From an uncultured Patescibacteria group bacterium (lineage in GTDB: Bacteria; Patescibacteriota; Patescibacteriia; Veblenbacterales; UBA10138), in NCBI GenBank assembly GCA_937929825.1, contig CALFUV010000004.1, forward strand, positions 1,042-65,041: a stretch of DNA of 64,000 nt, in the 5' to 3' direction. Positions 1 through 56,968 of this stretch are shown here, piece after piece; within the stretch, counting starts at the first letter, position 1, and every line of letters starts with the position of its first letter. The notes below the pieces were generated by a model. It did no database searches. It worked only from the letters and a program-made list of their open reading frames with translations, and had not been told where the DNA came from. Position numbers and translations under genes: made by a program.

Positions 1-1754
1 TTGACTGTTAAACTTTTATCAATGGAAAGGCGCTGCACAGAAAGATTATTAATACCGGCATTACCTAAAACTCCCAAACTGTTAGCAAAAATATGGCCAG
101 TAGCTTCAATAGTACCAGCCGTTAAACGAGTAGCTTCAATTCTTCCGGCATCAACTGTATCTAAAATAGCAGGGCCAAATACCTGCAATTCCTGCATCTT
201 GGTTAATCCTAAACCGCCTTCTAAATTTAGAGCACCGCGCAGAGTTAATGGTCCTTGAATAACAGCCCCACCACTTCTAACTTGTAAACTATAAACATCT
301 AGTAAACCAGTTGGTTCAGAAAACACCAATTGACGAGGTTCTGTGCCAGCTGTTAAACCACCGACTAAAGTCATAGGACCTGTGACAGATAAAGATTTTA
401 TTGATGATGAATCAGCCGATAAATTACTAAATGAACCTGTACCAGAATTTAAATTAACAGCCGATAAATTGTTAGTTATTAATTTTCCGGAAACAGTAAA
501 ATTAGTAACAGTTGACGGCCATACATTACTGGAAATATTTTGAGGTTTTTCCTTTTCAGCTGTTGTTCTAGTCTCAACAGCAATTTTATCTTCTTTAACT
601 TCAATTGGTTCTAAATTTTTAACCTCTTCTAAATCTTTATCTATTTTATTGTCAATAATAATTGAACCATCATCAGACGGTAATAAATCTTTTTTTTCAT
701 CATCACCCCGTAACAAAGGAGGAGCTTCAATTTTTTTATCTTCAACTACCAATTTATCAATCTTAGTGCTTGGAGAAATATTTACAGCCACAGAAGAACT
801 GCTACGCCGGAAAAATGCTATCGCGCTGGTACGAATACCATCAAGCCAACGTAAAAATCTTGTGTAACTAAATAAACTTTCTTCATCTGCTACTGTACCC
901 AAACCCTTAACTCTACCAACTTGATATATTTCAGATTCATCTATGCGATTGAAGGCTATTTTAATTGCTTTACCAAAACTATTTATCCCAGGTGATAATC
1001 TTTGGCCTAGAGCAATTTGAAAATAAAATGGTTTATAAGCCAGTGGTTCAGTAATAGATGCGAAATTTTTACCGAAGGCTAAAAATTTCGGATAACTAAC
1101 CCGATCATAAGGTTGTAAACCATTTGATATTTTTTTGCCGATCTGCATCTGCAAATCTACTAATTTAGAAGACAAATGATACAGAATGCTACTCTCTGAT
1201 ATAAAAGCTATTACAATATCTTCTGATAAACTTTTTATTCCAACTTTGGTTTGTTTAACATAAGCTGGGGCGAAAATTACACCCATTAAACCAATTACTA
1301 TTAAAAAGATACTAACCGTTACAGGTTTAAAACTAAATAATTTAAAAGACCATGCCTTGTTCAAAATGAACTTAACATGATCTGTAAATGCATCAAATAT
1401 CTCAGAGATTAAGTCAATAATCAGTTTTTGCCCTTGACTCAAGATTAATTTAACTGGTTGTTTAGTTTCTAGTTCTTCTACAACCTCAATAGTCTCTGTT
1501 TCGGGCCTATTCTTAATCTCAAGAGCGTTATTGCCGGAATGTATAACAGAAGCATAACGTCTTACTGAATAATGAGCCATGTACTCATTAACCCACTCTC
1601 GGGTAGTAAACCAGACCTTACCTAATTTTACCGCTTTTAGTTTCCCCTGCCCTGCTCTTAAACGAAAATAATCAGCTGAATAAGGTGAACCCTCTGCTGC
1701 TTGTTGCAGGGTTAAAAATTGCTGTGAAATTGTCTGGTCTTTTTTCTCCGGCAT
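1..1754 (-). CDS. Partial (3'-truncated at window edge) membrane protein: N-terminal HTH_17/excisionase-MerR-like DNA-binding domain, one TM helix, long Gly/Thr/Leu-rich beta-repeat extracytoplasmic region
   Basis: My own translation of the minus strand from ATG (complement of 1752-1754) gave no stop codon down to position 1. The ORF track omits it because its stop lies off-window. The N-terminus QQFLTLQQAAEGSPYSADYFRLRAGQGKLKAVKLGKVWFTTREWVNEY matches the HTH_17 pattern. VTVSIFLIVIGLMGVIFAPAYV is a hydrophobic TM segment. The C-terminal part has repeats such as LSVTGPMTLVGGLTAGTEP and ATRLTAGTIEATGHIFAN. The plus-strand ORFs 1..258, 343..543 and 649..867 overlap it and are likely spurious. 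Confidence 0.55.
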   Translation of the reverse strand, partial: MPEKKDQTISQQFLTLQQAAEGSPYSADYFRLRAGQGKLKAVKLGKVWFTTREWVNEYMAHYSVRRYASVIHSGNNALEIKNRPETETIEVVEELETKQPVKLILSQGQKLIIDLISEIFDAFTDHVKFILNKAWSFKLFSFKPVTVSIFLIVIGLMGVIFAPAYVKQTKVGIKSLSEDIVIAFISESSILYHLSSKLVDLQMQIGKKISNGLQPYDRVSYPKFLAFGKNFASITEPLAYKPFYFQIALGQRLSPGINSFGKAIKIAFNRIDESEIYQVGRVKGLGTVADEESLFSYTRFLRWLDGIRTSAIAFFRRSSSSVAVNISPSTKIDKLVVEDKKIEAPPLLRGDDEKKDLLPSDDGSIIIDNKIDKDLEEVKNLEPIEVKEDKIAVETRTTAEKEKPQNISSNVWPSTVTNFTVSGKLITNNLSAVNLNSGTGSFSNLSADSSSIKSLSVTGPMTLVGGLTAGTEPRQLVFSEPTGLLDVYSLQVRSGGAVIQGPLTLRGALNLEGGLGLTKMQELQVFGPAILDTVDAGRIEATRLTAGTIEATGHIFANSLGVLGNAGINNLSVQRLSIDKSLTV

Positions 1755-1857
1755 AATCCCGGAATAAGTACTATATTTATTTAGATTTTTATTTTTTGGC
1801 TTATTTTAGCCGTATATGTCTTAATTATAGCATGGTTAAGAGAAAAAATCAATATCG

Positions 1858-1874
1858 TATACGATTACGTATAC
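1858..1874. promoter_or_regulatory. Operator-like site TATACGAT-N3-GTATAC, copy A, embedded in the perfect inverted repeat GTATACG-ATTA-CGTATAC
   Basis: About 100 bp upstream of the HTH-membrane gene start. The same 14 fixed positions recur at 2239-2255. Confidence 0.4.
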
Positions 1875-2201: not shown

Positions 2202-2228
2202 CTTGACACACTTGACACATTTGACACG
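2202..2228. repeat. Three tandem 9-bp repeats CTTGACACA / CTTGACACA / TTTGACACG, each a TTGACA (-35-like) box, plus a fourth TTGACA at 2159-2164
   Basis: Read directly from the sequence, in the 530-bp intergenic region between mltG and the HTH-membrane gene. Confidence 0.6.
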
Positions 2229-2238
2229 TAAAAAAGCA

Positions 2239-2255
2239 TATACGATGAAGTATAC
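2239..2255. promoter_or_regulatory. Operator-like site TATACGAT-N3-GTATAC, copy B
   Basis: Sits immediately downstream of the TTGACA repeats. It shares TATACGATnnnGTATAC with copy A, 380 bp away. Confidence 0.4.
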
Positions 2256-2286
2256 GCCTTAAAAAATGGTGTAATATAAATATCTT

Positions 2287-3336
2287 TTACTTTAAATATT
2301 TAATCTTAGCCGCTTTATGTTCTTCAAAGTTTCTAGAATATATTACTTGGCCAGAAGGAGTTGTCAGAAAAAACCAATAATCATTAGGTGTTGACTCAAA
2401 TACTGCCTGTAAAGAACTAAGACCAGGATTGGAAATTGGCCCCGGCGGCAATCCTGTATATTTATATGTATTATAAGGTGAATCCACTTGCAAATCAGCA
2501 GCAGTAACAGCGGGTAATTTTTTCCCTGTAATATAATTTATAGTTGAATCAGCTTGTAGAGGAATTCCAGCTTTCATACGCTTATAAAATATATCTGCTA
2601 CTAATTTACGGTCATTAAATCCCGGTACTTCCATCTCAATTATGCTGGCTAATGTCAGGGCTTTATGTATAGTCAAGCCACGACTGCTTAAAGTTTCATT
2701 CCAATCCTCCTGCCACTTTTTTTCTAAATTATTGAGCATCCGCATAGCCACCTCTTCGGCAGTTGATGAGGCATATACTCTGTAAGTATCGGGGAAAAGA
2801 TAACCTTCTAAACTACCTCCGGGCCAGCTATTCAATATGGTGCCTTTAAAATTTTTTACTAAATTTTCAGTTCTTTCACCGCCACCTACTGCTGCCTCAA
2901 AATCTCCCTTGGTCAAAAAATTGATTTGTGACAAATACTCATCTATTTGTTTAATATTCCAACCTTCAATTAAACGAATAGTTAACTCTTTCGGTGTAAT
3001 AATAGATCCTGTAATCATTCGCACTAAATTATAAATATTCACATTGCTTGGCAAATTATATTCACCAATTTTAATTTCGTCATCTTTCCCTGAAATAAAT
3101 AACCAACTCCTAAACCAAAATTTACTTTTTATCAATTCAACTGTTTTAAGTTTTTGTGCTATTTCCCCTATAGTCTGCTCCGGTGTTATATCTATTTTTA
3201 TATAACGACCAGCTGGACCAACTGGTCTGCTTAATTGATAATTAACTAATAAACTGCCAATTATGAGTAGTATAAATAACAAACTGACCTTACTCATAAT
3301 TTTCCTAATAGAAACTCTCCTCTTCATAATATACAT
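2287..3336 (-). CDS. mltG: Endolytic murein transglycosylase MltG (YceG-like)
   Basis: 349-aa ORF with an N-terminal TM anchor. It has YceG-family motifs, including the GLPPGPI segment near the C-terminus. Confidence 0.8.
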   Translation of the reverse strand: MYIMKRRVSIRKIMSKVSLLFILLIIGSLLVNYQLSRPVGPAGRYIKIDITPEQTIGEIAQKLKTVELIKSKFWFRSWLFISGKDDEIKIGEYNLPSNVNIYNLVRMITGSIITPKELTIRLIEGWNIKQIDEYLSQINFLTKGDFEAAVGGGERTENLVKNFKGTILNSWPGGSLEGYLFPDTYRVYASSTAEEVAMRMLNNLEKKWQEDWNETLSSRGLTIHKALTLASIIEMEVPGFNDRKLVADIFYKRMKAGIPLQADSTINYITGKKLPAVTAADLQVDSPYNTYKYTGLPPGPISNPGLSSLQAVFESTPNDYWFFLTTPSGQVIYSRNFEEHKAAKIKYLK

Positions 3337-5564: not shown

Positions 5565-7142
5565 TTATAATAGACTGTGACCGGTCATAGTCCTTGGTTT
5601 TGGCAAACCCATTATTTTAAGAATAGTTGGCGCTACATCAGCCAATACTCCTGCCGGTGTCAATTTAGAAAGATCATCAGTCACTAATTGACCAGTTCCA
5701 GCCTTATCTTCCAATTCCCGAGCCACAATAATACAGGGCACGGGATTATTAGTATGCTCTTTATTAATAGTCCCTGTCTGTATATCAATAATACACTCAG
5801 CATTGCCATGATCTGCTGTTACTATAACTGCCCCACCATATTCCAGTGTACCAGCAACTACCTCACCTATACATTCATCTAATATATTTATAGCTTTTAC
5901 CGTTGCTGGTAAATTGCCAGTATGTCCCACCATATCGGCATTAGCAAAATTTATTACATAAAAATCATATTTACCAGTTCTGATCTCTTGTAAAAATCTA
6001 TCGGTTATACCGCGAGCTGACATTTCCGGTTTAATATCATAAGATGACACAACTGGCGAGGGTATCAAAATATGATCCTCACCTTCATAAGCTTGTTCCC
6101 TTCCACCATTAAAAAAATAAGTCACATGAGCATATTTTTCTGTTTCAGCTAAATGAAGTTGTTTAAATCCAGCTTCCGAAATTATTCTAGCTAACGGATA
6201 TTCAATCACCTGAGGAGGAAAAGCTACCTCTACCGGCATATTTTTCTCATATTCTGTCATGGTTACAAAATGAAGTTTATTTAGGGTGTGTCGGGGAAAT
6301 TTTTCAAAACTAGGTAAAACAAAAGCCTGTGTCAATTGTCGCGCTCTGTCTGCCCGGAAATTAAAAAAAATCACCACGTCATTATCTTTAATTGTAGCTA
6401 CCGGTTTACCACTTTCAATAATTACTGTTGGTACAACTTGTTCATCAAAAACCTTGGCTTCATAAGAAGCAGTTAAACCACGAATAGCTGACACTACTGG
6501 CTTACCCTTTCCTTCCACTAAACAATCATAAGCTGCCTGAATTCTATCCCAATGATTATCCCTGTCCATAGCGTAATACCGACCCATAATCGTGGCAATT
6601 TTACCTACACCTATTTTTTTTATTTTACTAGATAATTCCTCCAAATATAATTTAGCAGAATCAAATGGAGTATCACGTCCATCAAGAAAAGCATGTACAT
6701 AAACATCTTTAAGTCCAGAATACTTAGCCAATTCCAATAGTGCATATAAATGATCAATTGAGCTATGAACACCGCCAGGACTAGCCAAACCCATAAGATG
6801 CAAACTACTACTTCTTTTTTGGGCAACAAACATAGCCTCCGTCAAAACAGAATTTGAAAAAAAGGTTTTATCTACTATGGAGTTGGTGATGCGAGGTAAT
6901 TCCTGAAATAAAATAGTGCCGGCTCCCAGTGTCAAATGGCCAACTTCACTGTTGCCTATTTCTCCCCACGGCAAACCAACTGCCTCACCTGAGGCTTGTA
7001 GGATAAGGGTCGGATAAGTAACTATTAAACGATGCCAAACAGGTGTTTGAGCTAAATTAATAGCATTAGCCCGGGAGGGCGGCGCTACCCCCCAGCCGTC
7101 TAATATCACAAGTACCACCGGCTTTGGTCTTTGCTGAAACAT
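5565..7142 (-). CDS. gpmI: 2,3-bisphosphoglycerate-independent phosphoglycerate mutase (iPGM), copy 1
   Basis: VVLVILDGWGV and the catalytic-Ser motif GNSEVGHLTLGAG. Length 525 aa. Confidence 0.9.
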   Translation of the reverse strand: MFQQRPKPVVLVILDGWGVAPPSRANAINLAQTPVWHRLIVTYPTLILQASGEAVGLPWGEIGNSEVGHLTLGAGTILFQELPRITNSIVDKTFFSNSVLTEAMFVAQKRSSSLHLMGLASPGGVHSSIDHLYALLELAKYSGLKDVYVHAFLDGRDTPFDSAKLYLEELSSKIKKIGVGKIATIMGRYYAMDRDNHWDRIQAAYDCLVEGKGKPVVSAIRGLTASYEAKVFDEQVVPTVIIESGKPVATIKDNDVVIFFNFRADRARQLTQAFVLPSFEKFPRHTLNKLHFVTMTEYEKNMPVEVAFPPQVIEYPLARIISEAGFKQLHLAETEKYAHVTYFFNGGREQAYEGEDHILIPSPVVSSYDIKPEMSARGITDRFLQEIRTGKYDFYVINFANADMVGHTGNLPATVKAINILDECIGEVVAGTLEYGGAVIVTADHGNAECIIDIQTGTINKEHTNNPVPCIIVARELEDKAGTGQLVTDDLSKLTPAGVLADVAPTILKIMGLPKPRTMTGHSLL

Positions 7143-7146
7143 ACTT

Positions 7147-8724
7147 TTATAACAAACTATGGCGTTTCATTTCCTTTGGTTTATCTTTACCCAAATAATC
7201 AAGTATGGTTGGTGCTACATCGCCTAGCACACCACGACGATGACGAAATGATTTGCCACGATAAGCTGTATTATAAAGTATGAATGGCACTGGATTGTTA
7301 GAATGCTCAGTATCAACTTCCCCTGTATCACGATTTATAAATTCCTCAACATTCCCATGGTCAGCAGTAATAAACATAGTACCATGCAATTTTCTTATTT
7401 GTCCGGCTATGGTATTCAAAGCTCTATCTACTGCTTCCATAGCCAAAATACCGGCCTCTAAATTACCGGTATGACCAACCATATCTGGATTTGCAAAATT
7501 AACGGCAATAAAATCATATTTTTTGGCTTTAAGCACCCGCACTACGTAACTGGTTATTTTATCGGCTGACATCTCCGGAGTGGCGTCATAGGAATCAACT
7601 TTTGGAGACGGGACTGATACTCTATCTTCGCCGGCTACCGGATGATCATAACCACCATTAAAAAAGAAAGTTATATGAGCAAACTTTTCGCTTTCTGCTA
7701 TATAAAGCTGTCTTAATCCCCTAAGCGCAAAAGGTAAACTATTTCTAATATCACGACTAGGATAAGCTGTTAGTATGTGATCCAAATCTGGACCAAAATC
7801 AGTCAAAGCTACAAAGCATAAATTTTTTAAAACCTTCCAGCGTTTAAAAGCACCCTTATTAACTTTTTCAAAATCAATTTGCACAAAAGGCTTAGCTAAT
7901 TGCCTAGCTCTGTCTGATCTTAAATTAAAAAATATTACTGCATCATTATCACGAATAACCCCCTTGGGCATACCGCGTTTATCAGTAATTATGGCAGGAC
8001 TAATAAATTCATCACTCTCTCCTCGATTATAAGCGTGCCTAATAGCTGCTTCAGCTGATATCTCAGCTCGGCCACGTCCTCGCGTTAATAAATCATAAGT
8101 TAAAGCAGTGCGGGACCATTCTTTTTTTCTATCCATAGCATATAAACGTCCGCAAATAGAAGCTATCACTTCACCATTCTTCAATCTTTTCTTTACTTCA
8201 CCTATAAATTTTATGGCATCATAACGAGCTGAATCACGCCCATCAGTAAAAAAATGTAAATACACTCTCTTTAAACGGTGTAACTGTATTAGTTTTAATA
8301 AAGCCATAAAGTGATCAGGTGATGAATGTCCGCTATTGTAATTTGATAACAATCCCATTAAATGTAGGTTTGATTTTTCCGACTTAACATGCTCAATAGC
8401 TGTACGAAAAGTCTGATTTTTGAAAAAAGTTCCGTCACGAATGCTTTTACTAATAATCACTGCGTCCTGATCTACAATACGGCCAGCTCCAAGATTTAAG
8501 TGTCCAGCCTCTGAATTACCAACCTGACCCTTTGGTAACCCCACTGCCTCACCTGAAGCCTTAAGTAGGGCACGGGGATATTTTCCGCTAATCTCTTTAA
8601 GAAAAGGTGTGCGTGCTATTACAGTAGCATCACTATCTTCGCCGCCATGTAGATTTACTCCCCAACCATCTAAAATTGCTAAAACTACGGGATGGTATTT
8701 AGTATTAGTATTTTTTTTATCCAT
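7147..8724 (-). CDS. gpmI: 2,3-bisphosphoglycerate-independent phosphoglycerate mutase (iPGM), divergent paralog copy 2
   Basis: HPVVLAILDGWGV and GNSEAGHLNLGAG. Same length (525 aa) as copy 1 and directly in tandem with it. Both copies look intact. Confidence 0.85.
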   Translation of the reverse strand: MDKKNTNTKYHPVVLAILDGWGVNLHGGEDSDATVIARTPFLKEISGKYPRALLKASGEAVGLPKGQVGNSEAGHLNLGAGRIVDQDAVIISKSIRDGTFFKNQTFRTAIEHVKSEKSNLHLMGLLSNYNSGHSSPDHFMALLKLIQLHRLKRVYLHFFTDGRDSARYDAIKFIGEVKKRLKNGEVIASICGRLYAMDRKKEWSRTALTYDLLTRGRGRAEISAEAAIRHAYNRGESDEFISPAIITDKRGMPKGVIRDNDAVIFFNLRSDRARQLAKPFVQIDFEKVNKGAFKRWKVLKNLCFVALTDFGPDLDHILTAYPSRDIRNSLPFALRGLRQLYIAESEKFAHITFFFNGGYDHPVAGEDRVSVPSPKVDSYDATPEMSADKITSYVVRVLKAKKYDFIAVNFANPDMVGHTGNLEAGILAMEAVDRALNTIAGQIRKLHGTMFITADHGNVEEFINRDTGEVDTEHSNNPVPFILYNTAYRGKSFRHRRGVLGDVAPTILDYLGKDKPKEMKRHSLL

Positions 8725-29739: not shown

Positions 29740-30723
29740 TTGTCATTTATAACAGTCAATATGAATTCTGTCAAACCGCCAATGATAACTATAATCGGAC
29801 AAACAGCTTCTGGCAAATCTATTTTAGCTATAAAACTTGCCAAAAAATTTAATGGTGCAGTAATTTCTGCTGATTCACAACAAATATACAAATATGCAAA
29901 AATTGGCACTAATCAACCAACTGGCCAATGGCTAAAAGCAGATAAAAAATGGCAAAAAGTGATTAACAAAGACCAGCTCTACTTTGTTGCAGGCATCCCA
30001 CACTTTTTTATTGATGTTTTATCACCTAATAAACAGTATTCAGCAGCTCAATTTCAAAACAATACCAATAAATTATGCACAAAGTTATCAACAGCCAAAA
30101 TTTTACCAATATTAGCCGGAGGAACTGGTTTATATGTTTCAGCTATTGTTGAAAACTATAAATTTCCAAAAACAAAAGCTAATTTAAGTCTTAGAAAAAG
30201 GCTTAATAAGTTATCCACAACTGTCTTACAAAAAAAACTCAAAAAACTTGATTTAATCACTTGGCAATCAATAGATAAAACTAACCGACGTCGCTTGATA
30301 CGGGCCTTAGAACATATTATTACAACAGGTGAATCTTTTCGTGGCAGCCAACAAAAAAATATACGGCCTAATACTTTGATTATTGGCTTGAAAAAAAATA
30401 AAAATACTTTACACCAAGCAATAGTTAAACGTACTAATAAAATGTTTGATCAAGGTTTAATAAATGAAGTTAAGTTTTTACAAAAAAAATACCCCCATTC
30501 TCCACTACTACATTCAATTGGCTATCGTGAAGTGATAGATTATTTAAAAAATAAAATTACACAAACTGAATGCAGGCAAAAAATAATAAACCATACTTGG
30601 CAATATGCACGACGACAATTAACTTGGTTTAAAAAAATGTCTAATATTAAATGGGTTAATAATTACCAACAAGCCGAAAAAATTATTAAACATTTCTTAA
30701 AAAATTATTCTAATATTAACTAA
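29740..30723 (+). CDS. miaA: tRNA dimethylallyltransferase
   Basis: P-loop GQTASGKS. Typical IPP-transferase layout. Confidence 0.85.
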   Translation: MSFITVNMNSVKPPMITIIGQTASGKSILAIKLAKKFNGAVISADSQQIYKYAKIGTNQPTGQWLKADKKWQKVINKDQLYFVAGIPHFFIDVLSPNKQYSAAQFQNNTNKLCTKLSTAKILPILAGGTGLYVSAIVENYKFPKTKANLSLRKRLNKLSTTVLQKKLKKLDLITWQSIDKTNRRRLIRALEHIITTGESFRGSQQKNIRPNTLIIGLKKNKNTLHQAIVKRTNKMFDQGLINEVKFLQKKYPHSPLLHSIGYREVIDYLKNKITQTECRQKIINHTWQYARRQLTWFKKMSNIKWVNNYQQAEKIIKHFLKNYSNIN

Positions 30724-35975: not shown

Positions 35976-36548
35976 TTATAAATATTTTTTAACCAACTCT
36001 TTTTCAATTTTATTATACAATTCTTGTATTGTGCCGTCATTAATAATTTTTAACTGGGCTCTTCTTCCTAGTTTGCTAATATAAACTTCGGTTACTGCTT
36101 TTTCTTCACGCTTAAAATCAGTTAAACTTACTTTATTCTCACCGACTTTTTCCCTGCGCTGTCTAGCTCGTTCATAACGCAATGATAAAGGAGCTGTTAA
36201 ATATACCAATAAAAATCCAGGCAATTTTTTTAATAAATCATATTCAGCCGGATGACGCAGACCATCTATCACCACTCTCTTATAACCGTGAGAAATTATA
36301 TCCTGCTTAATTACTTGGGCTAAAATTCCTCCGCCAAATCTTTCTCTAAGCGCACTTACTAAATTAATTTGATTAGATCGGCTAATTGGTAAATGTAAAC
36401 GATTTAAAATATCCGATATAATACGGGAAAAATGATAACCGTAAAAATTGTGTCTCTTAATAAGATACTGCGCAGCCACTTCTTTACCAGCAAGTTTTTC
36501 CCCCACAAAAACTACTACTGCCGGTTTTATTTTTTTCTTTAATGCCAT
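35976..36548 (-). CDS. P-loop nucleotide/nucleoside kinase-family protein (possible dNMP kinase)
   Basis: Walker A VVVFVGEKLAGKE and a VIDGLRHPAE lid/NMP-binding-like motif. It is embedded in the dTTP-synthesis cluster. Confidence 0.45.
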   Translation of the reverse strand: MALKKKIKPAVVVFVGEKLAGKEVAAQYLIKRHNFYGYHFSRIISDILNRLHLPISRSNQINLVSALRERFGGGILAQVIKQDIISHGYKRVVIDGLRHPAEYDLLKKLPGFLLVYLTAPLSLRYERARQRREKVGENKVSLTDFKREEKAVTEVYISKLGRRAQLKIINDGTIQELYNKIEKELVKKYL

Positions 36549-41269: not shown

Positions 41270-44053
41270 ATGATGGAGAAGCCTCAAATACCAAGATTTC
41301 AAGAAAGAAAAGAAAAAAGAGAGGAATTAAAAGAATTCCTGCCTGCTGATCTCCAGCTTATTTACGGGACAGATGTAAAGCCCTCAAAATGGCATTTTGG
41401 GGGTGAGTTGCTAAAAAGAAGGCAGTCTGAAGAAACAGCTGATAAGCTATTTTTTAAAGCTCTTGATGAGTATAACAATAACAAAACAATAGAAACCAAC
41501 CTTTTTTCTGAAGTGTTAAAAGACAAACAAGAAACAGCCCAGTTGATGATTTATGATTGCCAACTGCAAACTGGTTTAAAAGAATTAGCAGATAATCATG
41601 AGTGGGACGACTACGCCTATCTTTTGATTAAAATGTCTGACCTGGGGAAGGTGAATTTTAATAATCCTCAATACAAAAGAATAAATGAATATATCAAAGG
41701 CCAGCCTGAAGAAGATGGCGCTTTTCTTTTGTACAACATTTCTGCCAACCTTGTTTTAGACAAAGATCTTTTAAAATATCAAAAAGACCAGTATCATCCC
41801 TGGCAGGCTTTGCGGCAAACCAGCCTAGAAATAAACAAAGAGCAAACAGAAAACAAACAGGTGAAAAATCCGGAAAAGTGGTGGCAGGAAAACAGCTATT
41901 TCTTGGGCCGTTTTCTGGCGCTTGGCAATTTAGCCATAGCCCTTGTTAAGGAAAAGTTGCCAGATGGCATTCCTTATCTTGAAGGAATGAAAAGAGTATA
42001 CAAGGAAGCTATAGAAAACAACCAGTCTTTGGCGCTTATTTACAAAACCATTGCTGACAATAAATTAAGCTATCCTCATGAACTGGGGACTTTTGTTGAA
42101 ATCACCAGCGCTTTCACAAAAGCCAATAAACTGGATATTTTAGCCCAAGTGGTGGAAACAACAGAAGCCGGCAAAATAAATGAAACTGCCTCCCGCGAAC
42201 TTTTAAAAATCACTGTTCAGGAGCTGGGCATTTCTCCGGAAAAGATAGCAGACTCAGACCTTAAAAAATGGAAAGCGGACTATCTCCCCAACCTTATTTC
42301 CAACGACGTGATAATGCAGGGGTTAATAAAAGATGGAGATAAGGGCTATGAAAACGCCCGGGAGCTATACCGCGAACTTTTAAAGTCTGTGTTTGAAGGC
42401 AGGTTTGATGATTTCCTAACCAATGAACATCAAGCCGGCGAAGTGGGCCGAGATGTTGCCCGCCACAACGCCCAAATCAAACAAACATATGAAAAACTGG
42501 GCATTCCTTGGGATAAATGGCTTAATTATGATAAAACCCAAGATTTTATTGTTTCCACAGAAATTAAGGTTAATGCCCGAGAAAGAAACCAAAAGCTTTT
42601 GGCTGAAAGAGCCGGAGCGGTTTTGAGGGCTCTAAAACCGCTTGAGGCTAAACTGACTGAAAGAGAATACCAGCCTCTTATTCATATTCTTTCCGGAACA
42701 AACAAGAAAAAGGATTTAAGTCAGGTTAAGGGCGAGGAACTTAAAACTTTGCTGGCAAATTTGGAAGAACGCCTGCAAAACCTTTGCTCTAAACAAGAAT
42801 ACCAGGATTGGGCTGAATGGAACCATATCTTTGAACACATGGGACATTTGCGAGAAGCAGTGGAAACGGTTTTGAAAACAGGAGAAAGCCTAAGCGAAAC
42901 AAGAGAAAAAGGTTTTCGCATCAAACTTTGGGATCGTGATCCGCGCAAGGATTTCTTCCAAGGCAACTATACTCACTGCTGTATTGCTGTGGGGGTTAAA
43001 AACACCCCGCCTGAGGGGGGTCTGACTACTCATGACCCAAGCACAATCATGCATTATCTGGCTGATCAGGGTATTCAGGTGGCAGAAATTCTTGACGAGA
43101 ATGAAAGAGATCCCATTGGCAATACCTGGCTTTTTGTTTCCCAAAACGAACTGGGAGAACCGATTTTAATCGCTGATAATGTTGAAATTAACAAAAGATA
43201 TAAAGATGTTCACGTCAATAACGCTATTCGCGACAATCTTCTGAAGTTTCTTGAAAATTACGCCAGGGAAACCAATATGGCTGGGGCTTATCTTGGCAAA
43301 GTGTCAACTAACGATATTGATGACGATAACCTGGGAACTAAAAAACTGCCGCCAGTGGACAAAGTGGGCGGGTATCTGGCTGAATACACTTCACATAGAA
43401 TCAGGCCGGGACGTTATTATTTGGAAACCTATAATCACCAAGAGTTGGCGGTTATCTGGGATGGCCAAGAAAACAGGCATCTTCAAAAAGAAAAAAGCGA
43501 GAAGAATAAAAACGGCTTTGTGATTATCTCTGATTTGGATGGCCTAACCAGAGCTGAACCCCTTACCCCAGAAACAATCCGCGCCGCCCAGCAAAGCGGC
43601 AGAATAGCCGGGCTGGATATATCTCAAATCAGACAATCAATAGAAGAGATTGAAAACAAATCGTTTGAAGGCGCTGCCCGCCAGTCTACAGACGAGATTT
43701 GGGAAACAATTCAAAATCCCAGAGGCCTTCAAATGATAGTCAGGAAAGAAGGCCGGATTGTGGGATACCTCTCTTCCCGACCAGCTGATACTTTCCTGCC
43801 CCCGGTCAGCCATGCTGAATACGACTCCTCACCTGAGGTTCTTTATATTGAATCCATTGCCGGCAACTTTGACCCATTTGAAACAATCAGGATTATTAAG
43901 GAAAAAGCCCAAGAAGCCGGTTACAAGAAAATAGCCCTTCACGGCATAAACCAGCAGTTAAACAAAGCTCTGGCCAGATTTGGTTTTAAAACCAAAGCAA
44001 CAGTTAAAAACTGGCTTGGCGCTACAGCAGCCTATATGGAAATGGAGTTGTAG
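41270..44053 (+). CDS. Large orphan protein (927 aa). The N-terminal ~560 aa are of unknown, mostly helical nature; the central region has an HCC motif; the C-terminus is a GNAT-like acyltransferase fold
   Basis: Long intact ORF. The C-terminus LYIESIAGNFDPFETIRIIKEKAQEAGYKKIALHGINQQLNKALARFGFKT fits the GNAT motif A/B pattern. Central conserved-looking segment WDRDPRKDFFQGNYTHCCIAVG. Its codon usage is visibly richer in GCC/GGC/CTG/CCC than that of neighbouring genes. No TM segment or signal peptide. No obvious SD upstream. Confidence 0.5.
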   Translation: MMEKPQIPRFQERKEKREELKEFLPADLQLIYGTDVKPSKWHFGGELLKRRQSEETADKLFFKALDEYNNNKTIETNLFSEVLKDKQETAQLMIYDCQLQTGLKELADNHEWDDYAYLLIKMSDLGKVNFNNPQYKRINEYIKGQPEEDGAFLLYNISANLVLDKDLLKYQKDQYHPWQALRQTSLEINKEQTENKQVKNPEKWWQENSYFLGRFLALGNLAIALVKEKLPDGIPYLEGMKRVYKEAIENNQSLALIYKTIADNKLSYPHELGTFVEITSAFTKANKLDILAQVVETTEAGKINETASRELLKITVQELGISPEKIADSDLKKWKADYLPNLISNDVIMQGLIKDGDKGYENARELYRELLKSVFEGRFDDFLTNEHQAGEVGRDVARHNAQIKQTYEKLGIPWDKWLNYDKTQDFIVSTEIKVNARERNQKLLAERAGAVLRALKPLEAKLTEREYQPLIHILSGTNKKKDLSQVKGEELKTLLANLEERLQNLCSKQEYQDWAEWNHIFEHMGHLREAVETVLKTGESLSETREKGFRIKLWDRDPRKDFFQGNYTHCCIAVGVKNTPPEGGLTTHDPSTIMHYLADQGIQVAEILDENERDPIGNTWLFVSQNELGEPILIADNVEINKRYKDVHVNNAIRDNLLKFLENYARETNMAGAYLGKVSTNDIDDDNLGTKKLPPVDKVGGYLAEYTSHRIRPGRYYLETYNHQELAVIWDGQENRHLQKEKSEKNKNGFVIISDLDGLTRAEPLTPETIRAAQQSGRIAGLDISQIRQSIEEIENKSFEGAARQSTDEIWETIQNPRGLQMIVRKEGRIVGYLSSRPADTFLPPVSHAEYDSSPEVLYIESIAGNFDPFETIRIIKEKAQEAGYKKIALHGINQQLNKALARFGFKTKATVKNWLGATAAYMEMEL

Positions 44054-56035: not shown

Positions 56036-56968
56036 TTATCCTTCAACTGCTACTCTGCCTCCGGTAATATCTGCCAGTTCTGCAGTGATAGCCGCCTGAC
56101 GCGCTTGGTTAAAAGCCAGAGTCAATGAATCTATCATCTCTTTAGCGGCATCGGAAGCATTGCGCATAGACATCATGCGGGCTGAATGCTCGGAAGCATC
56201 TGATTCCAACAAGGCTTGATAAATTTGTATTTCAATCAAACGGGGCAAAAGATTATTCAATACTTTTTCAGGTGATGGTTCAAACTTATATTCATAATTA
56301 AAGCGATTTTGTTTTATATCTTCCTTTACAGGAGTTGTTTGAGTAGCCCGGGCCTGGCCCAAATATTCATCCGATTCCTCTTCCATGGGTAATATCTGTT
56401 TAAGACGCGGCCTTTGGTTAACCGGGGAAATAAAATCTGTATAAGCAATGACTACGCGATCATATTTACCGGCCAAATAATCAGTAATAGCTAGTTTAGC
56501 CACTGGCGTGATTTCTTCAATTTTGGTAGTAATATCTGGCTTAGTAAACTCAGCAGTTATATCATAACCTAAACGCCAGGCAATATCTCTACCTCTACGA
56601 CCAATTGCTATTAAACTAACTGTTAATTCAGGCTCTAGCCGTTGTTCTTTGATAATATACTGATGAGCTTTATTAACCAGTTGATGATTAAATCCAGCAC
56701 ATAGTCCCCGATTGGAAGATACCAGAATAATTCCTAAACTTTTTACCGGATAACGTTTGATCAATAAAGAGTGTTGTGAAGAATCTGTGCGAGATGAAAG
56801 TTCAGTTAATAACTGCCATGCCAACGTAGCATAAGTACGGGTAGCTAAAACATTAGCTACCGCTCGCCTCATTTTAGCTGCCGATACCAGCTCCATCGCT
56901 TTAGTAATTTGACGGGTATTTTGAATAGAGCGTATACGCCTTTTAATTTCTCTAGTTGCCTGAGGCAT
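56036..56968 (-). CDS. atpG: F1 ATP synthase gamma subunit
   Basis: IKRRIRSIQNTRQITKAMELVSAAKMRRA N-terminus. Conserved C-terminal helix. Confidence 0.9.
   Translation of the reverse strand: MPQATREIKRRIRSIQNTRQITKAMELVSAAKMRRAVANVLATRTYATLAWQLLTELSSRTDSSQHSLLIKRYPVKSLGIILVSSNRGLCAGFNHQLVNKAHQYIIKEQRLEPELTVSLIAIGRRGRDIAWRLGYDITAEFTKPDITTKIEEITPVAKLAITDYLAGKYDRVVIAYTDFISPVNQRPRLKQILPMEEESDEYLGQARATQTTPVKEDIKQNRFNYEYKFEPSPEKVLNNLLPRLIEIQIYQALLESDASEHSARMMSMRNASDAAKEMIDSLTLAFNQARQAAITAELADITGGRVAVEG

What the first reader, a model, noticed from the sequence alone, without database searches (positions are those of the whole stretch)
1..1754. Membrane-tethered HTH protein with a large beta-repeat extracytoplasmic domain (gene missed by the ORF track)
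The minus strand of 1-1754 is one uninterrupted reading frame starting at the complement of 1752-1754 and running off the window edge. The six-frame track only lists ORFs with an in-window stop, so it is hidden. The product combines a cytoplasmic HTH_17/excisionase-like DNA-binding domain, a single TM helix and more than 350 residues of Gly/Thr/Leu-rich repeats (…LTLRGALNLEGGLGLT…ATRLTAGTIEATGHIFANSLGVLGNAGINN…) that suggest a beta-helix or fiber. A DNA-binding domain fused through the membrane to a large external sensor or adhesin-like domain, in the manner of ToxR/CadC-like one-component regulators, is unusual. Its upstream region carries paired operator-like motifs.
Basis: seen in the sequence. 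Interest (0 to 1): 0.55.

Follow-up and report, generated by a model that had tools for sequence, protein, structure and literature searches.

The report
Membrane-anchored DNA-binding head on giant fibre
The window edge cuts through the start of a giant cell-surface fibre gene of an ultra-small (CPR/Patescibacteria) bacterium; its cytoplasmic tip is an excisionase-like DNA-binding fold shared by a large undescribed protein family whose genes carry matching palindromes in their own promoters.

Summary
The minus strand of 1-1754 is an uninterrupted 584-codon ORF that runs off the window. It encodes an N-terminal winged-helix module, one TM helix and a beta-rich exterior. Orthologs show the full protein exceeds 1,854 aa and continues into phage-tail-fibre-like repeats. 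Every assembly breaks inside this gene. The module scores below Pfam's HTH_17 cutoff, but it folds confidently as an excisionase/BldC-type winged helix.

It is not a one-off. At least 1,464 protein clusters, all named ones Patescibacteria, carry 1-3 N-terminal copies. In the 109 top-scoring hits of 200 aa or more, 92 have a TM segment after the last module (87 have exactly one), followed by a variable exterior; hits range from about 100 to 4,384 aa. Topology is N-in (positive-inside, p=9e-12).

The promoter-proximal palindrome GTATACG-N4-CGTATAC is conserved in three genomes beside an invariant promoter. This region is more conserved than the neighbouring housekeeping genes. The second "operator" is most simply the yceG terminator.

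Other module genes in nine independent genomes carry a different palindrome, TATC(G/C)GATA, usually inside their -35/-10 spacer (p about 1e-8), and their recognition helix differs too. The best reading is a membrane-anchored surface fibre whose cytoplasmic head binds DNA and autoregulates. This resembles ToxR in topology only. DNA binding is inferred, not shown.

The parts
1..1754 (-). 5' part (584 codons) of a giant bitopic surface-fibre gene. It runs off the window edge, and the full protein is longer than 1,854 aa.
   Evidence: Orthologs are P0001 (965 aa, frameshifted at the 3' end) and P0152 (1,854 aa, cut by its contig end).
1551..1727 (-). Cytoplasmic excisionase/BldC-type winged-helix module (aa 10-68).
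   Evidence: HTH_17 is sub-threshold here (E=0.05) but above cutoff in relatives. AF2 pLDDT is 93-97. Foldseek matches Pukovnik Xis, RdfS, TraN and BldC. PHROG excisionase match E=0.0075.
1347..1454 (-). Cytoplasmic juxtamembrane helix (aa 101-136).
   Evidence: AF2 helix with pLDDT about 92 for aa 110-130. Conserved among orthologs.
1269..1325 (-). Single transmembrane helix (aa 144-162) acting as a signal-anchor, N-in/C-out.
   Evidence: Hydropathy 2.52. AF2 helix 144-161. Family-wide positive-inside bias: the N-side has more K+R in 65 proteins and fewer in 5, p=9e-12.
765..1256 (-). Extracytoplasmic juxtamembrane domain (aa 167-330), specific to the ortholog group. A unit of about 95 aa is triplicated in P0002.
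   Evidence: No Pfam or PDB match.
510..764 (-). Lys/Asp/Glu-rich low-complexity linker (aa 331-415). It is Thr/Pro/Gln-rich in orthologs.
   Evidence: Composition; alignment.
3..509 (-). Beta-rich Gly/Ser/Thr/Leu region (aa 416-584). Residues 465-584 (nt 3-362) form a conserved 120-aa domain at the fibre base, shared with P0155, P0156 and P0222.
   Evidence: The AF2 model is all-beta but low confidence.
1824..1852 (-). Promoter: -35 TTGATT, 17-nt spacer, extended -10 TGcTATAAT. The spacer is conserved too (one substitution, in L001) across three genomes.
1857..1874 (.). Proximal palindrome GTATACG-N4-CGTATAC (two CGTATACG-type boxes 12 bp apart), 4 nt upstream of the -35. Candidate operator.
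   Evidence: Conserved in the window, L001 and L002 with a variable centre and one symmetric G..C to A..T change. 3 hits against 0.11 expected in the window. It forms only a weak RNA hairpin with no adjacent U-tract.
1755..1823 (-). Conserved 5' leader of about 63 nt: an (A/G)TATACG box at about the transcription start, a small stem-loop GGCT-N6-AGCC (1798-1811), an A-rich tract, and no clear Shine-Dalgarno sequence.
   Evidence: From palindrome to ATG the region is 79-81% identical to the other genomes (79-86% from palindrome to the leader A-run), against 61-75% for coding DNA and 29-59% for other intergenic regions.
2230..2260 (-). Distal copy of the box pair. It is an 11-bp hairpin followed by U6 and is most simply the intrinsic terminator of yceG.
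   Evidence: -12.2 kcal/mol, z=-4.6, 0 of 200 shuffles fold as well. The homologous stretch in L001 does not fold (z=-0.3), and L002 uses a separate GC-rich terminator.
2202..2228 (.). Three tandem 9-nt repeats (CTTGACACA x2 plus TTTGACACG on the + strand, which read TGTGTCAAG in the gene direction). One copy is conserved in L001. Function unknown.
2287..3336 (-). yceG/mltG, the upstream neighbour in a gene block that is syntenic in three genomes. It is separately terminated.

Best explanation
Window 1-1754 (minus strand) encodes the first third or less of a giant single-pass membrane protein (longer than 1,854 aa) from a Parcubacteria/Veblenbacteria-like CPR bacterium.

Shown:
- An N-terminal excisionase/BldC-type winged-helix module of about 60 aa.
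- A cytoplasmic helix, then one TM helix oriented N-in/C-out.
- Outside the cell: a juxtamembrane domain, a charged linker and a conserved beta 'base' domain. In orthologs this continues into phage-tail-fibre-like repeats.
- The protein belongs to a large Patescibacteria family not described in the literature I could search. In that family 1-3 copies of the module sit at the N-terminus of proteins of about 100 to 4,384 aa; in most of the top-scoring members (87 of the 109 that are 200 aa or longer) exactly one TM segment follows the module.

Inferred:
- The exterior is an oligomeric surface fibre or adhesin.
- The cytoplasmic module binds DNA sequence-specifically at a palindrome in the gene's own promoter, so the fibre gene is autoregulated from the membrane. 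The membrane-bound protein may also hold its own gene at the membrane.
- In the window group the site is GTATACG-N4-CGTATAC abutting the -35, with a further box at the transcription start. In the mainstream of the family it is TATC(G/C)GATA inside the -35/-10 spacer.
For: Architecture.

Fold: AF2 pLDDT 93-97. Foldseek top hits are all DNA-binding excisionase-type winged helices: Pukovnik Xis (rmsd 1.8 A, prob 1.0), RdfS, TraN and BldC (TM 0.70-0.76). Relatives pass the HTH_17 cutoff, e.g. P0212 at 44.9 bits.

Family: 1,464 representative clusters at E<=1e-3. Of the 109 listed hits of 200 aa or more, 92 have a TM segment after the last module, 87 have exactly one, and none has a TM before it. 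All named members are Patescibacteria.

Fibre: the C-termini of the orthologs match tail-fibre repeats and a PHROG tail-fibre family. Other family members carry Peptidase_S74, and two have sub-threshold collagen-repeat matches. Post-TM composition is 36% S/T/G/N.

Window-group operator: the palindrome and promoter are conserved in three genomes whose proteins are only 40-50% identical. The region is 79-86% identical, against 61-75% for coding DNA and 29-59% for other intergenic regions. The arms are conserved, the centre varies, and one change is symmetric.

Family-wide operator: in nine independent loci TATC(G/C)GATA is exact within 160 nt upstream in 5 of 9, against 2 of 467 control tiles (p=1.3e-8). 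It is among the most widely shared 9-mers in an unbiased scan. In five loci it lies in or overlaps the -35/-10 spacer.

Co-variation: the window group differs from the mainstream at recognition-helix and wing positions (SQ[DE]YLSLRARQ..GRNW against S[AP]DY[FL]RLRAGQ..G[KR][VS]W), in parallel with its different palindrome.
Against: No experiment shows DNA binding, and the module's sequence match to HTH_17 is below threshold in this protein. A deeper profile finds no PDB sequence hit.

The palindromes could be bound by another regulator, for example a soluble single-module paralog such as P0027. The co-variation rests on only two clades.

The window-group palindrome sits upstream of the -35, not in the spacer as in the mainstream. 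The promoter is near-consensus, so neither activation nor repression is obvious.

The module is nearly invariant across paralogs with unrelated exteriors. That pattern would also fit a common protein partner. The recurrent neighbourhood of cell-wall and division genes (yceG, ftsW/rodA, ftsEX, mreB) fits a RodZ-like role.

The fibre fold is unconfirmed (pLDDT 54.5), and the C-terminus of every ortholog is missing.
Confidence: 0.5

Rival explanations
1. ToxR/CadC-like one-component sensor. The external domain senses a signal, such as host contact, and the membrane-tethered HTH changes transcription of target genes in response.
For: It has the same N-in HTH, single TM and external-domain topology. 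An operator-like palindrome lies beside the promoter. Transmembrane transcription regulators are a recognised and widespread class (PMC10269533).
Against: There is no OmpR-type DNA-binding domain and no known sensor domain. The exterior is a fibre of more than 1,700 aa, not a 100-250 aa sensor. Some family members, e.g. P0022 at 107 aa, have the module and TM but essentially no exterior, so sensing cannot be the family's common function. No target genes other than the gene itself were found in 64 kb.
Confidence: 0.15
2. The winged-helix module is a cytoplasmic protein-protein anchor and does not bind DNA. As in RodZ, whose HTH binds MreB, it would couple envelope proteins and fibres to the cell-wall or division machinery. 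The promoter palindromes would be bound by some other factor.
For: Module genes recur next to peptidoglycan and division genes: yceG/mltG in three genomes, ligA-ftsW/rodA in two, prfB-ftsEX in two, and an mreB locus. The module is nearly invariant across paralogs with unrelated exteriors, as expected for one conserved partner. HTH+TM proteins of the RodZ type are counted among 'TTRs' although they are not regulators (RodZ-MreB from my own knowledge).
Against: There is no homology to RodZ (no HTH_25 or DUF4115 hit). All the closest folds bind DNA. The only features these otherwise unrelated genes share are the module and the palindrome, the usual signature of autoregulation. The window gene is transcriptionally separated from yceG by a terminator and has its own promoter.
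Confidence: 0.17
3. The module binds DNA non-specifically or at many chromosomal sites and tethers the nucleoid to the envelope. This would be RacA/Noc-like anchoring or transertion in an ultra-small cell. The conserved palindromes would be RNA or DNA hairpins (terminators or mRNA 5' structures), or sites for another regulator.
For: The fold is excisionase/BldC-type. These proteins often bind cooperatively as multimers on repeats (my own knowledge for BldC and Xis). Modules occur in tandem, up to 3 copies. The distal box pair in the window is a good terminator hairpin. The modules are only mildly basic.
Against: The proximal palindrome is a weak hairpin (z about -2) with no adjacent U-tract. 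It lies upstream of the promoter, so it is not in the mRNA. Exact palindromes are almost confined to module-gene promoters: 2 of 467 control tiles, and a lone copy in the 64-kb window that lies inside a coding region. That argues against many chromosomal sites.
Confidence: 0.13
4. Artefact or mobile-element remnant: a prophage excisionase fused to a tail-fibre gene, or a chimeric assembly.
For: The N-terminus weakly matches a phage excisionase family and the C-terminus of an ortholog matches a tail-fibre family. Every contig breaks or frameshifts inside the gene.
Against: The same gene sits at the same place in a housekeeping block (gap-pgk-eno-iPGMx2-fpg-PAP2-PCMT-yceG) in three divergent genomes. 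The ORF is continuous across module, TM and exterior. More than a thousand clusters carry the module, and most of the examined ones share the module-TM layout. No other phage genes are nearby.
Confidence: 0.03

Closest known systems
Transmembrane transcription regulators (ToxR, TcpP, CadC, VtrA; surveyed by Demey et al. 2023, PMC10269533)
   Same: An N-terminal cytoplasmic winged-helix DNA-binding domain, a single TM helix and an extracytoplasmic C-terminus. A promoter-proximal repeat is the likely binding site. VtrA-type regulators have been linked to transertion (PMC9977878 abstract).
   Different: The DNA-binding domain is excisionase/HTH_17-type, not OmpR-type Trans_reg_C. HTH_17 makes up only 0.30% of surveyed TTRs, and Patescibacteria are not mentioned. 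Modules can be tandem (1-3 copies). The exterior is a fibre of more than 1,700 aa rather than a small sensor. Some family members have no exterior at all.
Excisionase/Xis, BldC and TraN: small MerR-like winged-helix DNA binders (PDB 4j2n, 8dgl, 6ama, 4p0y)
   Same: The same beta-alpha-alpha-beta-beta-alpha fold (rmsd 1.8 A over 47-49 residues), with a shared GKLKAV(K/R)LG wing motif with Pukovnik Xis. TraN, like many family members, has two such domains in tandem.
   Different: Those proteins are small, soluble and cytoplasmic. Here the fold is the head of a membrane protein and is fused to a giant exterior.
RodZ (HTH_25-TM-DUF4115)
   Same: A bitopic protein with a cytoplasmic N-terminal HTH, and a genomic association with cell-wall genes.
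   Different: The HTH class is unrelated (XRE-type). RodZ's HTH binds MreB, not DNA (my own knowledge). There is no DUF4115 here.
Phage tail fibres / Peptidase_S74-capped fibres, and MYRF
   Same: Orthologs and family members carry tail-fibre-like repeats (GNVGIGTxxP...), a PHROG tail-fibre match and S74 chaperone domains. Like this family, MYRF combines a DNA-binding domain, a membrane anchor and an S74-like domain (PMC13294678 abstract; domain details from my own knowledge).
   Different: These are chromosomal cellular genes in a housekeeping block, not phage genes. In MYRF the S74-like domain lies on the same side of the membrane as the DNA-binding domain and releases it by cleavage. Here S74 is at the far extracellular end.
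MerR-family regulators
   Same: A related winged-helix superfamily. In the mainstream of the family the palindrome lies in the -35/-10 spacer, the position MerR operators occupy.
   Different: There is no C-terminal coiled-coil dimerisation or effector domain. The spacers are 17 nt, not 19-20. In the window gene the palindrome is upstream of the -35.

Membership tests
HTH_17 / excisionase-type winged helix (Pfam PF12728) | Score at or above the Pfam gathering threshold (27 bits) | tested here: not met
   The window module scores 14.3 bits, E=0.05, and the whole protein gives no HTH_17 hit. Homologous modules in relatives do pass: P0212 44.9, P0203 33.2 and P0217 31.0 bits. PF12728 is precomputed for several hits.
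HTH_17 / excisionase-type winged helix (Pfam PF12728) | beta-alpha-alpha(HTH)-beta-beta(wing)-alpha fold | tested here: met
   AF2 pLDDT 93-97 with elements E13-15, H16-21, H27-36, E42-44, E47-51, H52-. Foldseek matches Xis 4j2n, RdfS 8dgl and BldC 6ama with probability 0.9-1.0.
HTH_17 / excisionase-type winged helix (Pfam PF12728) | Binds DNA | not testable with these tools
   Indirect evidence only: conserved palindromes in the promoters of module genes.
ToxR/CadC-like receptors | OmpR/PhoB-type Trans_reg_C DNA-binding domain | tested here: not met
   No Trans_reg_C hit at E<=1. The fold is excisionase-type.
ToxR/CadC-like receptors | Single TM helix with cytoplasmic N-terminus | tested here: met
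   One hydrophobic segment at 144-162. Family-wide positive-inside bias, p=9e-12.
ToxR/CadC-like receptors | Compact periplasmic sensor domain | tested here: not met
   No Pfam, NCBIfam or PDB match. The exterior is longer than 1,700 aa and has tail-fibre-like repeats.
Transmembrane transcription regulators (operational definition of PMC10269533: a DNA-binding domain plus at least one TM region) | A recognised DNA-binding domain and a TM region in one protein | tested here: inconclusive
   The TM criterion is met. The DNA-binding domain is recognised by fold and by homology to HTH_17-positive relatives, but it is below the Pfam cutoff in this protein.
RodZ | HTH_25 (XRE-type) N-terminal domain and DUF4115 C-terminal domain | tested here: not met
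   No such Pfam hits.
Phage-tail-fibre-like proteins | Match to tail-fibre families or repeats | tested here: inconclusive
   The in-window part (aa 399-584) has no PHROG hit. Ortholog P0152 matches phrog_1980 (tail fiber, E=1.6e-6) at aa 1501-1566. The region of P0001 beyond the window matches fibre-repeat proteins.
Phage-tail-fibre-like proteins | C-terminal Peptidase_S74 intramolecular chaperone | not testable with these tools
   The C-terminus is missing in the window and in all orthologs. S74 is present in another family member, P0188.
MerR-type regulation | Operator palindrome within an elongated (19-20 bp) -35/-10 spacer | tested here: not met
   In the window gene the spacer is 17 nt and the palindrome lies 4 nt upstream of the -35. 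Mainstream family genes do have the palindrome in a 17-nt spacer.

The most novel reading that the evidence does not exclude
Patescibacteria possess a large, previously unrecognised class of proteins in which a sequence-specific excisionase-type DNA-binding head in the cytoplasm is wired through one TM helix to surface structures, up to giant tail-fibre-like adhesins. Each protein binds a palindrome in its own promoter. The state of the surface fibre (assembly, host contact, shedding or cleavage) would then feed back directly on transcription, and/or the gene would be held at the membrane for co-transcriptional, co-translational insertion and local oligomerisation. That would be a Notch/MYRF-like or transertion-like logic in the smallest known bacteria.
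Probability: 0.2. Interest if true: 0.85.

Novelty: new variant of a known kind. Interest (0 to 1): 0.62.

Why it matters
CPR/Patescibacteria are thought to live attached to host cells, yet very little is known about how they regulate or anchor their surface structures. Most of their envelope proteins are annotated as 'hypothetical'.

This finding defines a lineage-wide architecture (excisionase-like head, TM helix, variable exterior), together with a matching cis-element code in the promoters. That yields directly testable predictions: module-palindrome binding, autoregulation and surface localisation. It also explains a practical nuisance, namely that these genes systematically break metagenome assemblies.

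If DNA binding is confirmed, the repertoire of membrane-tethered transcription regulators would extend to a new DNA-binding fold, a new phylum and ectodomains 10-20 times larger than any known sensor. It would also offer a handle on host-contact signalling in organisms that are barely culturable.

Tried and rejected
- Pfam, NCBIfam and PDB sequence searches of the whole fragment gave nothing usable. A deeper 101-sequence profile against PDB also found nothing.
- Rfam and tRNA scans of the window and of L001/L002 were empty, so no known RNA explains the conserved leader or intergenic islands.
- The first combined 108-sequence structure job failed. The C-terminal model was too poor (pLDDT 54.5) to justify a fold search.
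- The genome contigs and metagenome-contig scans recovered only the L001 organism again (L003-L007), so no fourth independent ortholog promoter was obtained. P0002 has no contig on record.
- I considered that both box pairs are operators. I rejected this for the distal one in the window, which is a terminator hairpin, while noting that L001's copy does not fold.
- The extra CGTATACG at 56931, TTATCCACA at 30211 and TATCCGATA at 36410 all lie inside coding regions and have no partners, so I treated them as chance.
- A prophage origin is rejected on synteny.
- Literature searches found no description of this family or of its motifs. The CPR pilus preprint is unrelated.
Full report
OBSERVATION. 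Translating the minus strand from 1754 to 1 gives 584 sense codons with no stop, and the frame runs off the window. The ORF lister omits it only because it needs an in-window stop. At 33% GC an open frame this long is not chance; my own estimate is about 1e-20. The start codon is supported by orthologs that begin MPE/MEE at the aligned position. So the gene is real, and the window holds only its 5' part.

ANATOMY OF THE IN-WINDOW PROTEIN.
- aa 10-68: a conserved basic module.
- aa 101-136: a cytoplasmic helix.
- aa 144-162: the only strongly hydrophobic segment (Kyte-Doolittle 2.52).
- aa 167-330: a juxtamembrane domain found only in the ortholog group.
- aa 331-415: a Lys/Asp/Glu-rich linker.
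- aa 416-584: a Leu/Gly/Ser/Thr-rich beta region.

THE N-TERMINAL MODULE. Pfam on the whole fragment reports only a sub-threshold DUF7447 hit. Scanned alone, the module hits HTH_17 at E=0.05 (14.3 bits, cutoff 27), and five of eight aligned homologous modules hit HTH_17. Other family members exceed the cutoff, up to 44.9 bits.

With a 101-sequence alignment AlphaFold2 predicts residues 11-70 at pLDDT 93-97, with beta-alpha-alpha-beta-beta-alpha topology. Foldseek's best PDB matches are all DNA-binding excisionase-type winged helices: RdfS, mycobacteriophage Pukovnik Xis (rmsd 1.8 A, 32% identity, probability 1.0), TraN and BldC (rmsd 1.8 A, TM 0.70-0.76). The E-values are modest (0.04-0.9) because the domain is small. 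PHROGs gives a weak 'excisionase and transcriptional regulator' match. The fold assignment is therefore sound. DNA binding itself is not shown.

TOPOLOGY. There is no N-terminal signal peptide; about 140 hydrophilic residues precede the TM helix. In the window protein alone the flanking charges are balanced. Across 79 family members with a single TM helix, the 20 residues on the N-side carry 4.0 K+R against 2.1 on the C-side. The N-side is higher in 65 proteins and lower in 5 (Wilcoxon p=9e-12). The post-TM parts are 36% Ser/Thr/Gly/Asn and poor in Lys/Arg/Glu.

FULL LENGTH AND EXTERIOR. The word-based search found two full-coverage homologs, P0001 (Parcubacteria GW2011_GWD2_43_10, 965 aa) and P0002 (977 aa). 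The exhaustive HMMER search added P0152 (Candidatus Veblenbacteria, 1,854 aa).
- P0152's gene runs off its 81-kb contig.
- P0001's gene ends in a frameshifted tail, and the following ORFs continue the fibre repeats.
- A metagenome copy of the same gene is frameshifted.

The true protein therefore exceeds 1,854 aa, and the gene breaks every assembly that contains it.

Beyond the window, the orthologs carry repeats of the type GNVGIGTxxP...LAG.TSG.VT.Q.AAAAGT. These are shared with many fibre-like proteins, including one with a Peptidase_S74 chaperone. P0152 residues 1501-1566 match a PHROG tail-fibre family at E=1.6e-6.

Window residues 465-584 form a conserved 120-aa domain that also sits at the base of the variable exteriors of P0155, P0156 and P0222 (Patescibacteria, Kerfeldbacteria). 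An AF2 monomer model of aa 399-584 is all-beta, with implausibly long strands and pLDDT 54.5. That is compatible with an oligomeric fibre, but it is not evidence for any particular fold.

THE FAMILY. A profile of the module finds more than 800 proteins in the word-indexed database. Those with names are nearly all Patescibacteria (Nealsonbacteria, Azambacteria, Gribaldobacteria, Parcubacteria), and some are annotated PF12728 or 'excisionase family'. The exhaustive search gives 1,464 representative clusters at E<=1e-3.

Among the best 142:
- The module is N-terminal in 136.
- It occurs once in 51 proteins, twice in 86 and three times in 4.
- Of the 109 proteins of 200 aa or more, 92 have a TM-like segment within 200 aa after the last module, 87 have exactly one, and none has one before the module.

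Lengths run from about 100 to 4,384 aa. The exteriors are mostly unannotated. Exceptions are Peptidase_S74, Gly_rich_2 and a Hint/intein domain above Pfam's cutoffs, and two sub-threshold collagen-repeat matches. At the other extreme P0022 is a complete 107-aa protein consisting of module plus TM only.

I found no paper describing it. The 2023 survey of transmembrane transcription regulators lists 50,302 such proteins, only 151 of them (0.30%) with HTH_17, and does not mention Patescibacteria.

GENOMIC CONTEXT. In the window, L001 and L002 the gene follows the same housekeeping block: gap-pgk-eno-iPGM-iPGM-fpg-PAP2-PCMT-yceG. Neighbouring proteins are 45-81% identical between the genomes. This excludes a prophage or a chimeric assembly.

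UPSTREAM REGION. The 532-nt spacer between yceG and the gene contains two islands that are conserved with L001, around a non-conserved AT-rich core of about 380 nt.

Proximal island, conserved in all three genomes. In the direction of the gene it contains:
- GTATACG-N4-CGTATAC, i.e. two CGTATACG-type boxes 12 bp apart. The centre is variable, and in L001 one pair changes symmetrically from G..C to A..T. L002 has a third box 10 bp further upstream.
- A gap of 4-5 nt.
- TTGATT, a 17-nt spacer conserved apart from one substitution in L001, and the extended -10 TGcTATAAT.
- In the window and L001, a further (A/G)TATACG at about the transcription start.
- A small GGCT-N6-AGCC stem-loop and an A-rich leader.

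From palindrome to ATG the region is 79-81% identical between the window and the other genomes, and 79-86% from palindrome to the leader A-run. The most conserved coding DNA in the block is 68-75% identical, the fibre gene's own 5' part 61-65%, and other intergenic regions 29-59%. The GTATAC-N5-CGTATA pattern occurs only here in 64 kb (3 hits against 0.11 expected). GTATAC itself is under-represented in the window, at 8 observed against about 21 expected.

As RNA the proximal palindrome is a weak hairpin (-8 kcal/mol, z=-2) with no adjacent U-tract, and it lies upstream of the promoter. It therefore behaves as a DNA site.

Distal island. In the window the distal box pair folds into an 11-bp hairpin followed by U6 (-12.2 kcal/mol, z=-4.6). 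This is a canonical terminator for yceG. The homologous L001 stretch does not fold (z=-0.3), and L002 has a separate GC-rich terminator. So 'paired operators' is only half right.

A FAMILY-WIDE CIS CODE. I fetched nine other module-bearing genes from independent contigs: L009-L017, encoding P0004, P0022, P0106, P0027, P0008, P0035, P0094, P0056 and P0117. Their upstream regions are otherwise unrelated (58-64% identity, which is the AT-rich background). An unbiased k-mer count over seven of them ranks two 9-mers first: TTATCCACA (5 of 7) and TATCCGATA/TATCGGATA (4 of 7). In 500 shuffles the maximum sharing was almost always 2-3.

Over all nine loci:
- The palindrome TATC(G/C)GATA is exact within 160 nt upstream in 5 of 9, against 2 of 467 control tiles from the same loci (Fisher p=1.3e-8).
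- TTATCCACA is exact in 5 of 9, against 3 of 467 (p=3.5e-8).
- Three further loci carry a one-mismatch copy upstream (two of them within 160 nt), and L017 has three tandem TTCCGAT half-sites.
- In L009 and L010, which encode different proteins in different genomes, the two motifs lie at identical offsets: -54/-55 and -26 from the ATG.
- A computed promoter scan puts the palindrome inside the 17-nt -35/-10 spacer, or overlapping the -10, in L009, L010, L014, L015 and L016. That is the position of a repressor or MerR-type operator. These mRNAs would be nearly leaderless.

The only things these genes share are the module and the motif. In comparative genomics this is the usual signature of an autoregulated DNA-binding protein.

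The window group has a different palindrome. It also differs systematically at the N-terminus and middle of the recognition helix and in the wing: SQ[DE]YLSLRARQ...GRNW in the mainstream against S[AP]DY[FL]RLRAGQ...G[KR][VS]W. This counts as co-variation, but only across two clades. The 9-mer TATACGATA, part of the L001 palindrome, also occurs in the mainstream promoter of L013. That hints that the two site types are related.

MECHANISM.

Shown: the protein is bitopic and N-in, its head has an excisionase-type fold, and orthologs have a very long fibre-like exterior. It belongs to a big Patescibacteria family. Its own promoter is strongly constrained and carries a conserved palindrome.

Inferred (about 0.5): the head binds that palindrome and autoregulates the gene from the membrane. 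Because the bound protein is membrane-embedded, its own gene would also be held at the membrane. This could favour co-translational insertion and local oligomerisation of a giant fibre. A related link between membrane-bound regulators and transertion has been proposed for VtrA/VtrB (PMC9977878 abstract).

Whether binding activates or represses is open. In mainstream genes the spacer position argues for repression. In the window gene the sites flank a near-consensus promoter, which also favours repression, but their position at about -57 to -40 would allow activation.

RIVALS.
(a) A ToxR-like sensor. The topology fits, but there is no sensor domain, the exterior is a fibre, and some members have no exterior.
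(b) A RodZ-like protein-protein anchor. This is supported by the recurrent neighbourhood of yceG/mltG, ftsW/rodA, ftsEX and mreB and by the near-invariance of the module. It is opposed by the DNA-binding fold neighbours and the promoter palindromes.
(c) A non-specific nucleoid tether, with the palindromes bound by another factor.
(d) An artefact or prophage remnant, which synteny excludes.

COMPARISON AND NOVELTY. The protein works like a transmembrane transcription regulator in topology and, probably, in binding a promoter-proximal repeat. It is not a member of the ToxR/CadC family, because the defining OmpR-type domain and the sensor domain were tested for and are absent. Its head belongs structurally to the excisionase/BldC/TraN group, while failing Pfam's HTH_17 threshold in this copy. 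Its exterior resembles phage tail fibres.

The combination is not described in the literature I could search: a tandem-capable excisionase head, a TM helix, an exterior ranging from nothing to 4,000 aa, and a matching promoter palindrome. I rate it a new variant of a known kind. Interest is moderate to high for CPR biology and for membrane-tethered gene regulation. It is tempered by the lack of any direct evidence for DNA binding and by the missing C-terminus.

Noticed in passing
L009:9947, L010:5946, L011:5912, L013:2891, L014:2924 (upstream of module genes): The exact 9-mer TTATCCACA, which is the classical DnaA-box consensus (my own knowledge), lies on the coding strand upstream of 5 of 9 mainstream module genes, about 8-23 nt upstream of the predicted -35 in four of them. 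It occurs in only 3 of 467 control tiles (p=3.5e-8). This suggests cell-cycle (DnaA) control or a second site for the module. It is absent from the window gene's promoter.
   Followed up: partly
window 2202-2228: Three tandem 9-nt repeats (CTTGACACA, CTTGACACA, TTTGACACG) lie just downstream of the yceG terminator. One copy is conserved at the same place in L001. Each contains a perfect TTGACA on the + strand. Function unknown.
   Followed up: partly
whole window: The palindromic hexamer GTATAC is under-represented: 8 observed against about 21 expected from base composition. Three of the eight lie in the 532-nt yceG-fibre intergenic region. The avoidance might reflect a restriction-modification system.
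   Followed up: no
window 5565-7142 and 7147-8724 (minus strand): Two tandem 525-aa iPGM (cofactor-independent phosphoglycerate mutase) paralogs. The duplication is conserved in L001 and L002, and each copy is 74-81% identical to its counterpart.
   Followed up: no
L010:6001-6324, L013:3001-3300, L014:3001-3241, L009, L012: Short module genes recur next to cell-wall and division genes. P0022 and P0008 follow ligA-ftsW/rodA in two genomes. P0035 directly follows prfB-ftsE-ftsX, and the same three genes lie about 7 kb upstream of P0004. P0027's locus holds mreB. The window group follows yceG/mltG.
   Followed up: partly
L001:12898-13866, L002:15562 (contig end), L007:1897-3327: Every available copy of the gene is cut by a contig end or disrupted by a frameshift. 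The ORFs after P0001's annotated stop continue the fibre repeats. Repeats in this gene evidently break short-read assemblies, so database lengths (965, 977 and 1,854 aa) are all underestimates.
   Followed up: yes
P0002 aa 180-450 (homolog; no contig on record): The juxtamembrane unit of about 95 aa (…PYNRFSLPKFYAVGKHISKVTAPL…QLELGKRISPSV…), which is single-copy in the window protein (aa ~190-280), is triplicated almost identically in P0002.
   Followed up: no
L017:2860-2890: The upstream region of module gene P0117 lacks the palindrome. It has three tandem TTCCGAT repeats, which are half of TATCCGATA, about 120 nt before the ATG.
   Followed up: no
L009, L010, L015 promoters: The predicted -10 elements of mainstream module genes end 7-9 nt before the ATG, so these mRNAs would be essentially leaderless. 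In contrast, the window group has a conserved A-rich leader of about 63 nt with no clear Shine-Dalgarno sequence.
   Followed up: partly
whole window; 42001-44000: There are no tRNA genes and no Rfam family hits anywhere in the 64 kb. The 42-44 kb segment has a locally higher G+C (0.43 against about 0.35) and a reversed GC skew. It lies within a 927-aa ORF (41270-44053, + strand).
   Followed up: no
P0177 aa 1415-1499; P0188 aa 2533-2586: Among giant family members, one carries a Hint/intein splicing domain and another a Peptidase_S74 tail-fibre chaperone in the exterior. Both are autoproteolytic modules that could process or release the fibre.
   Followed up: no
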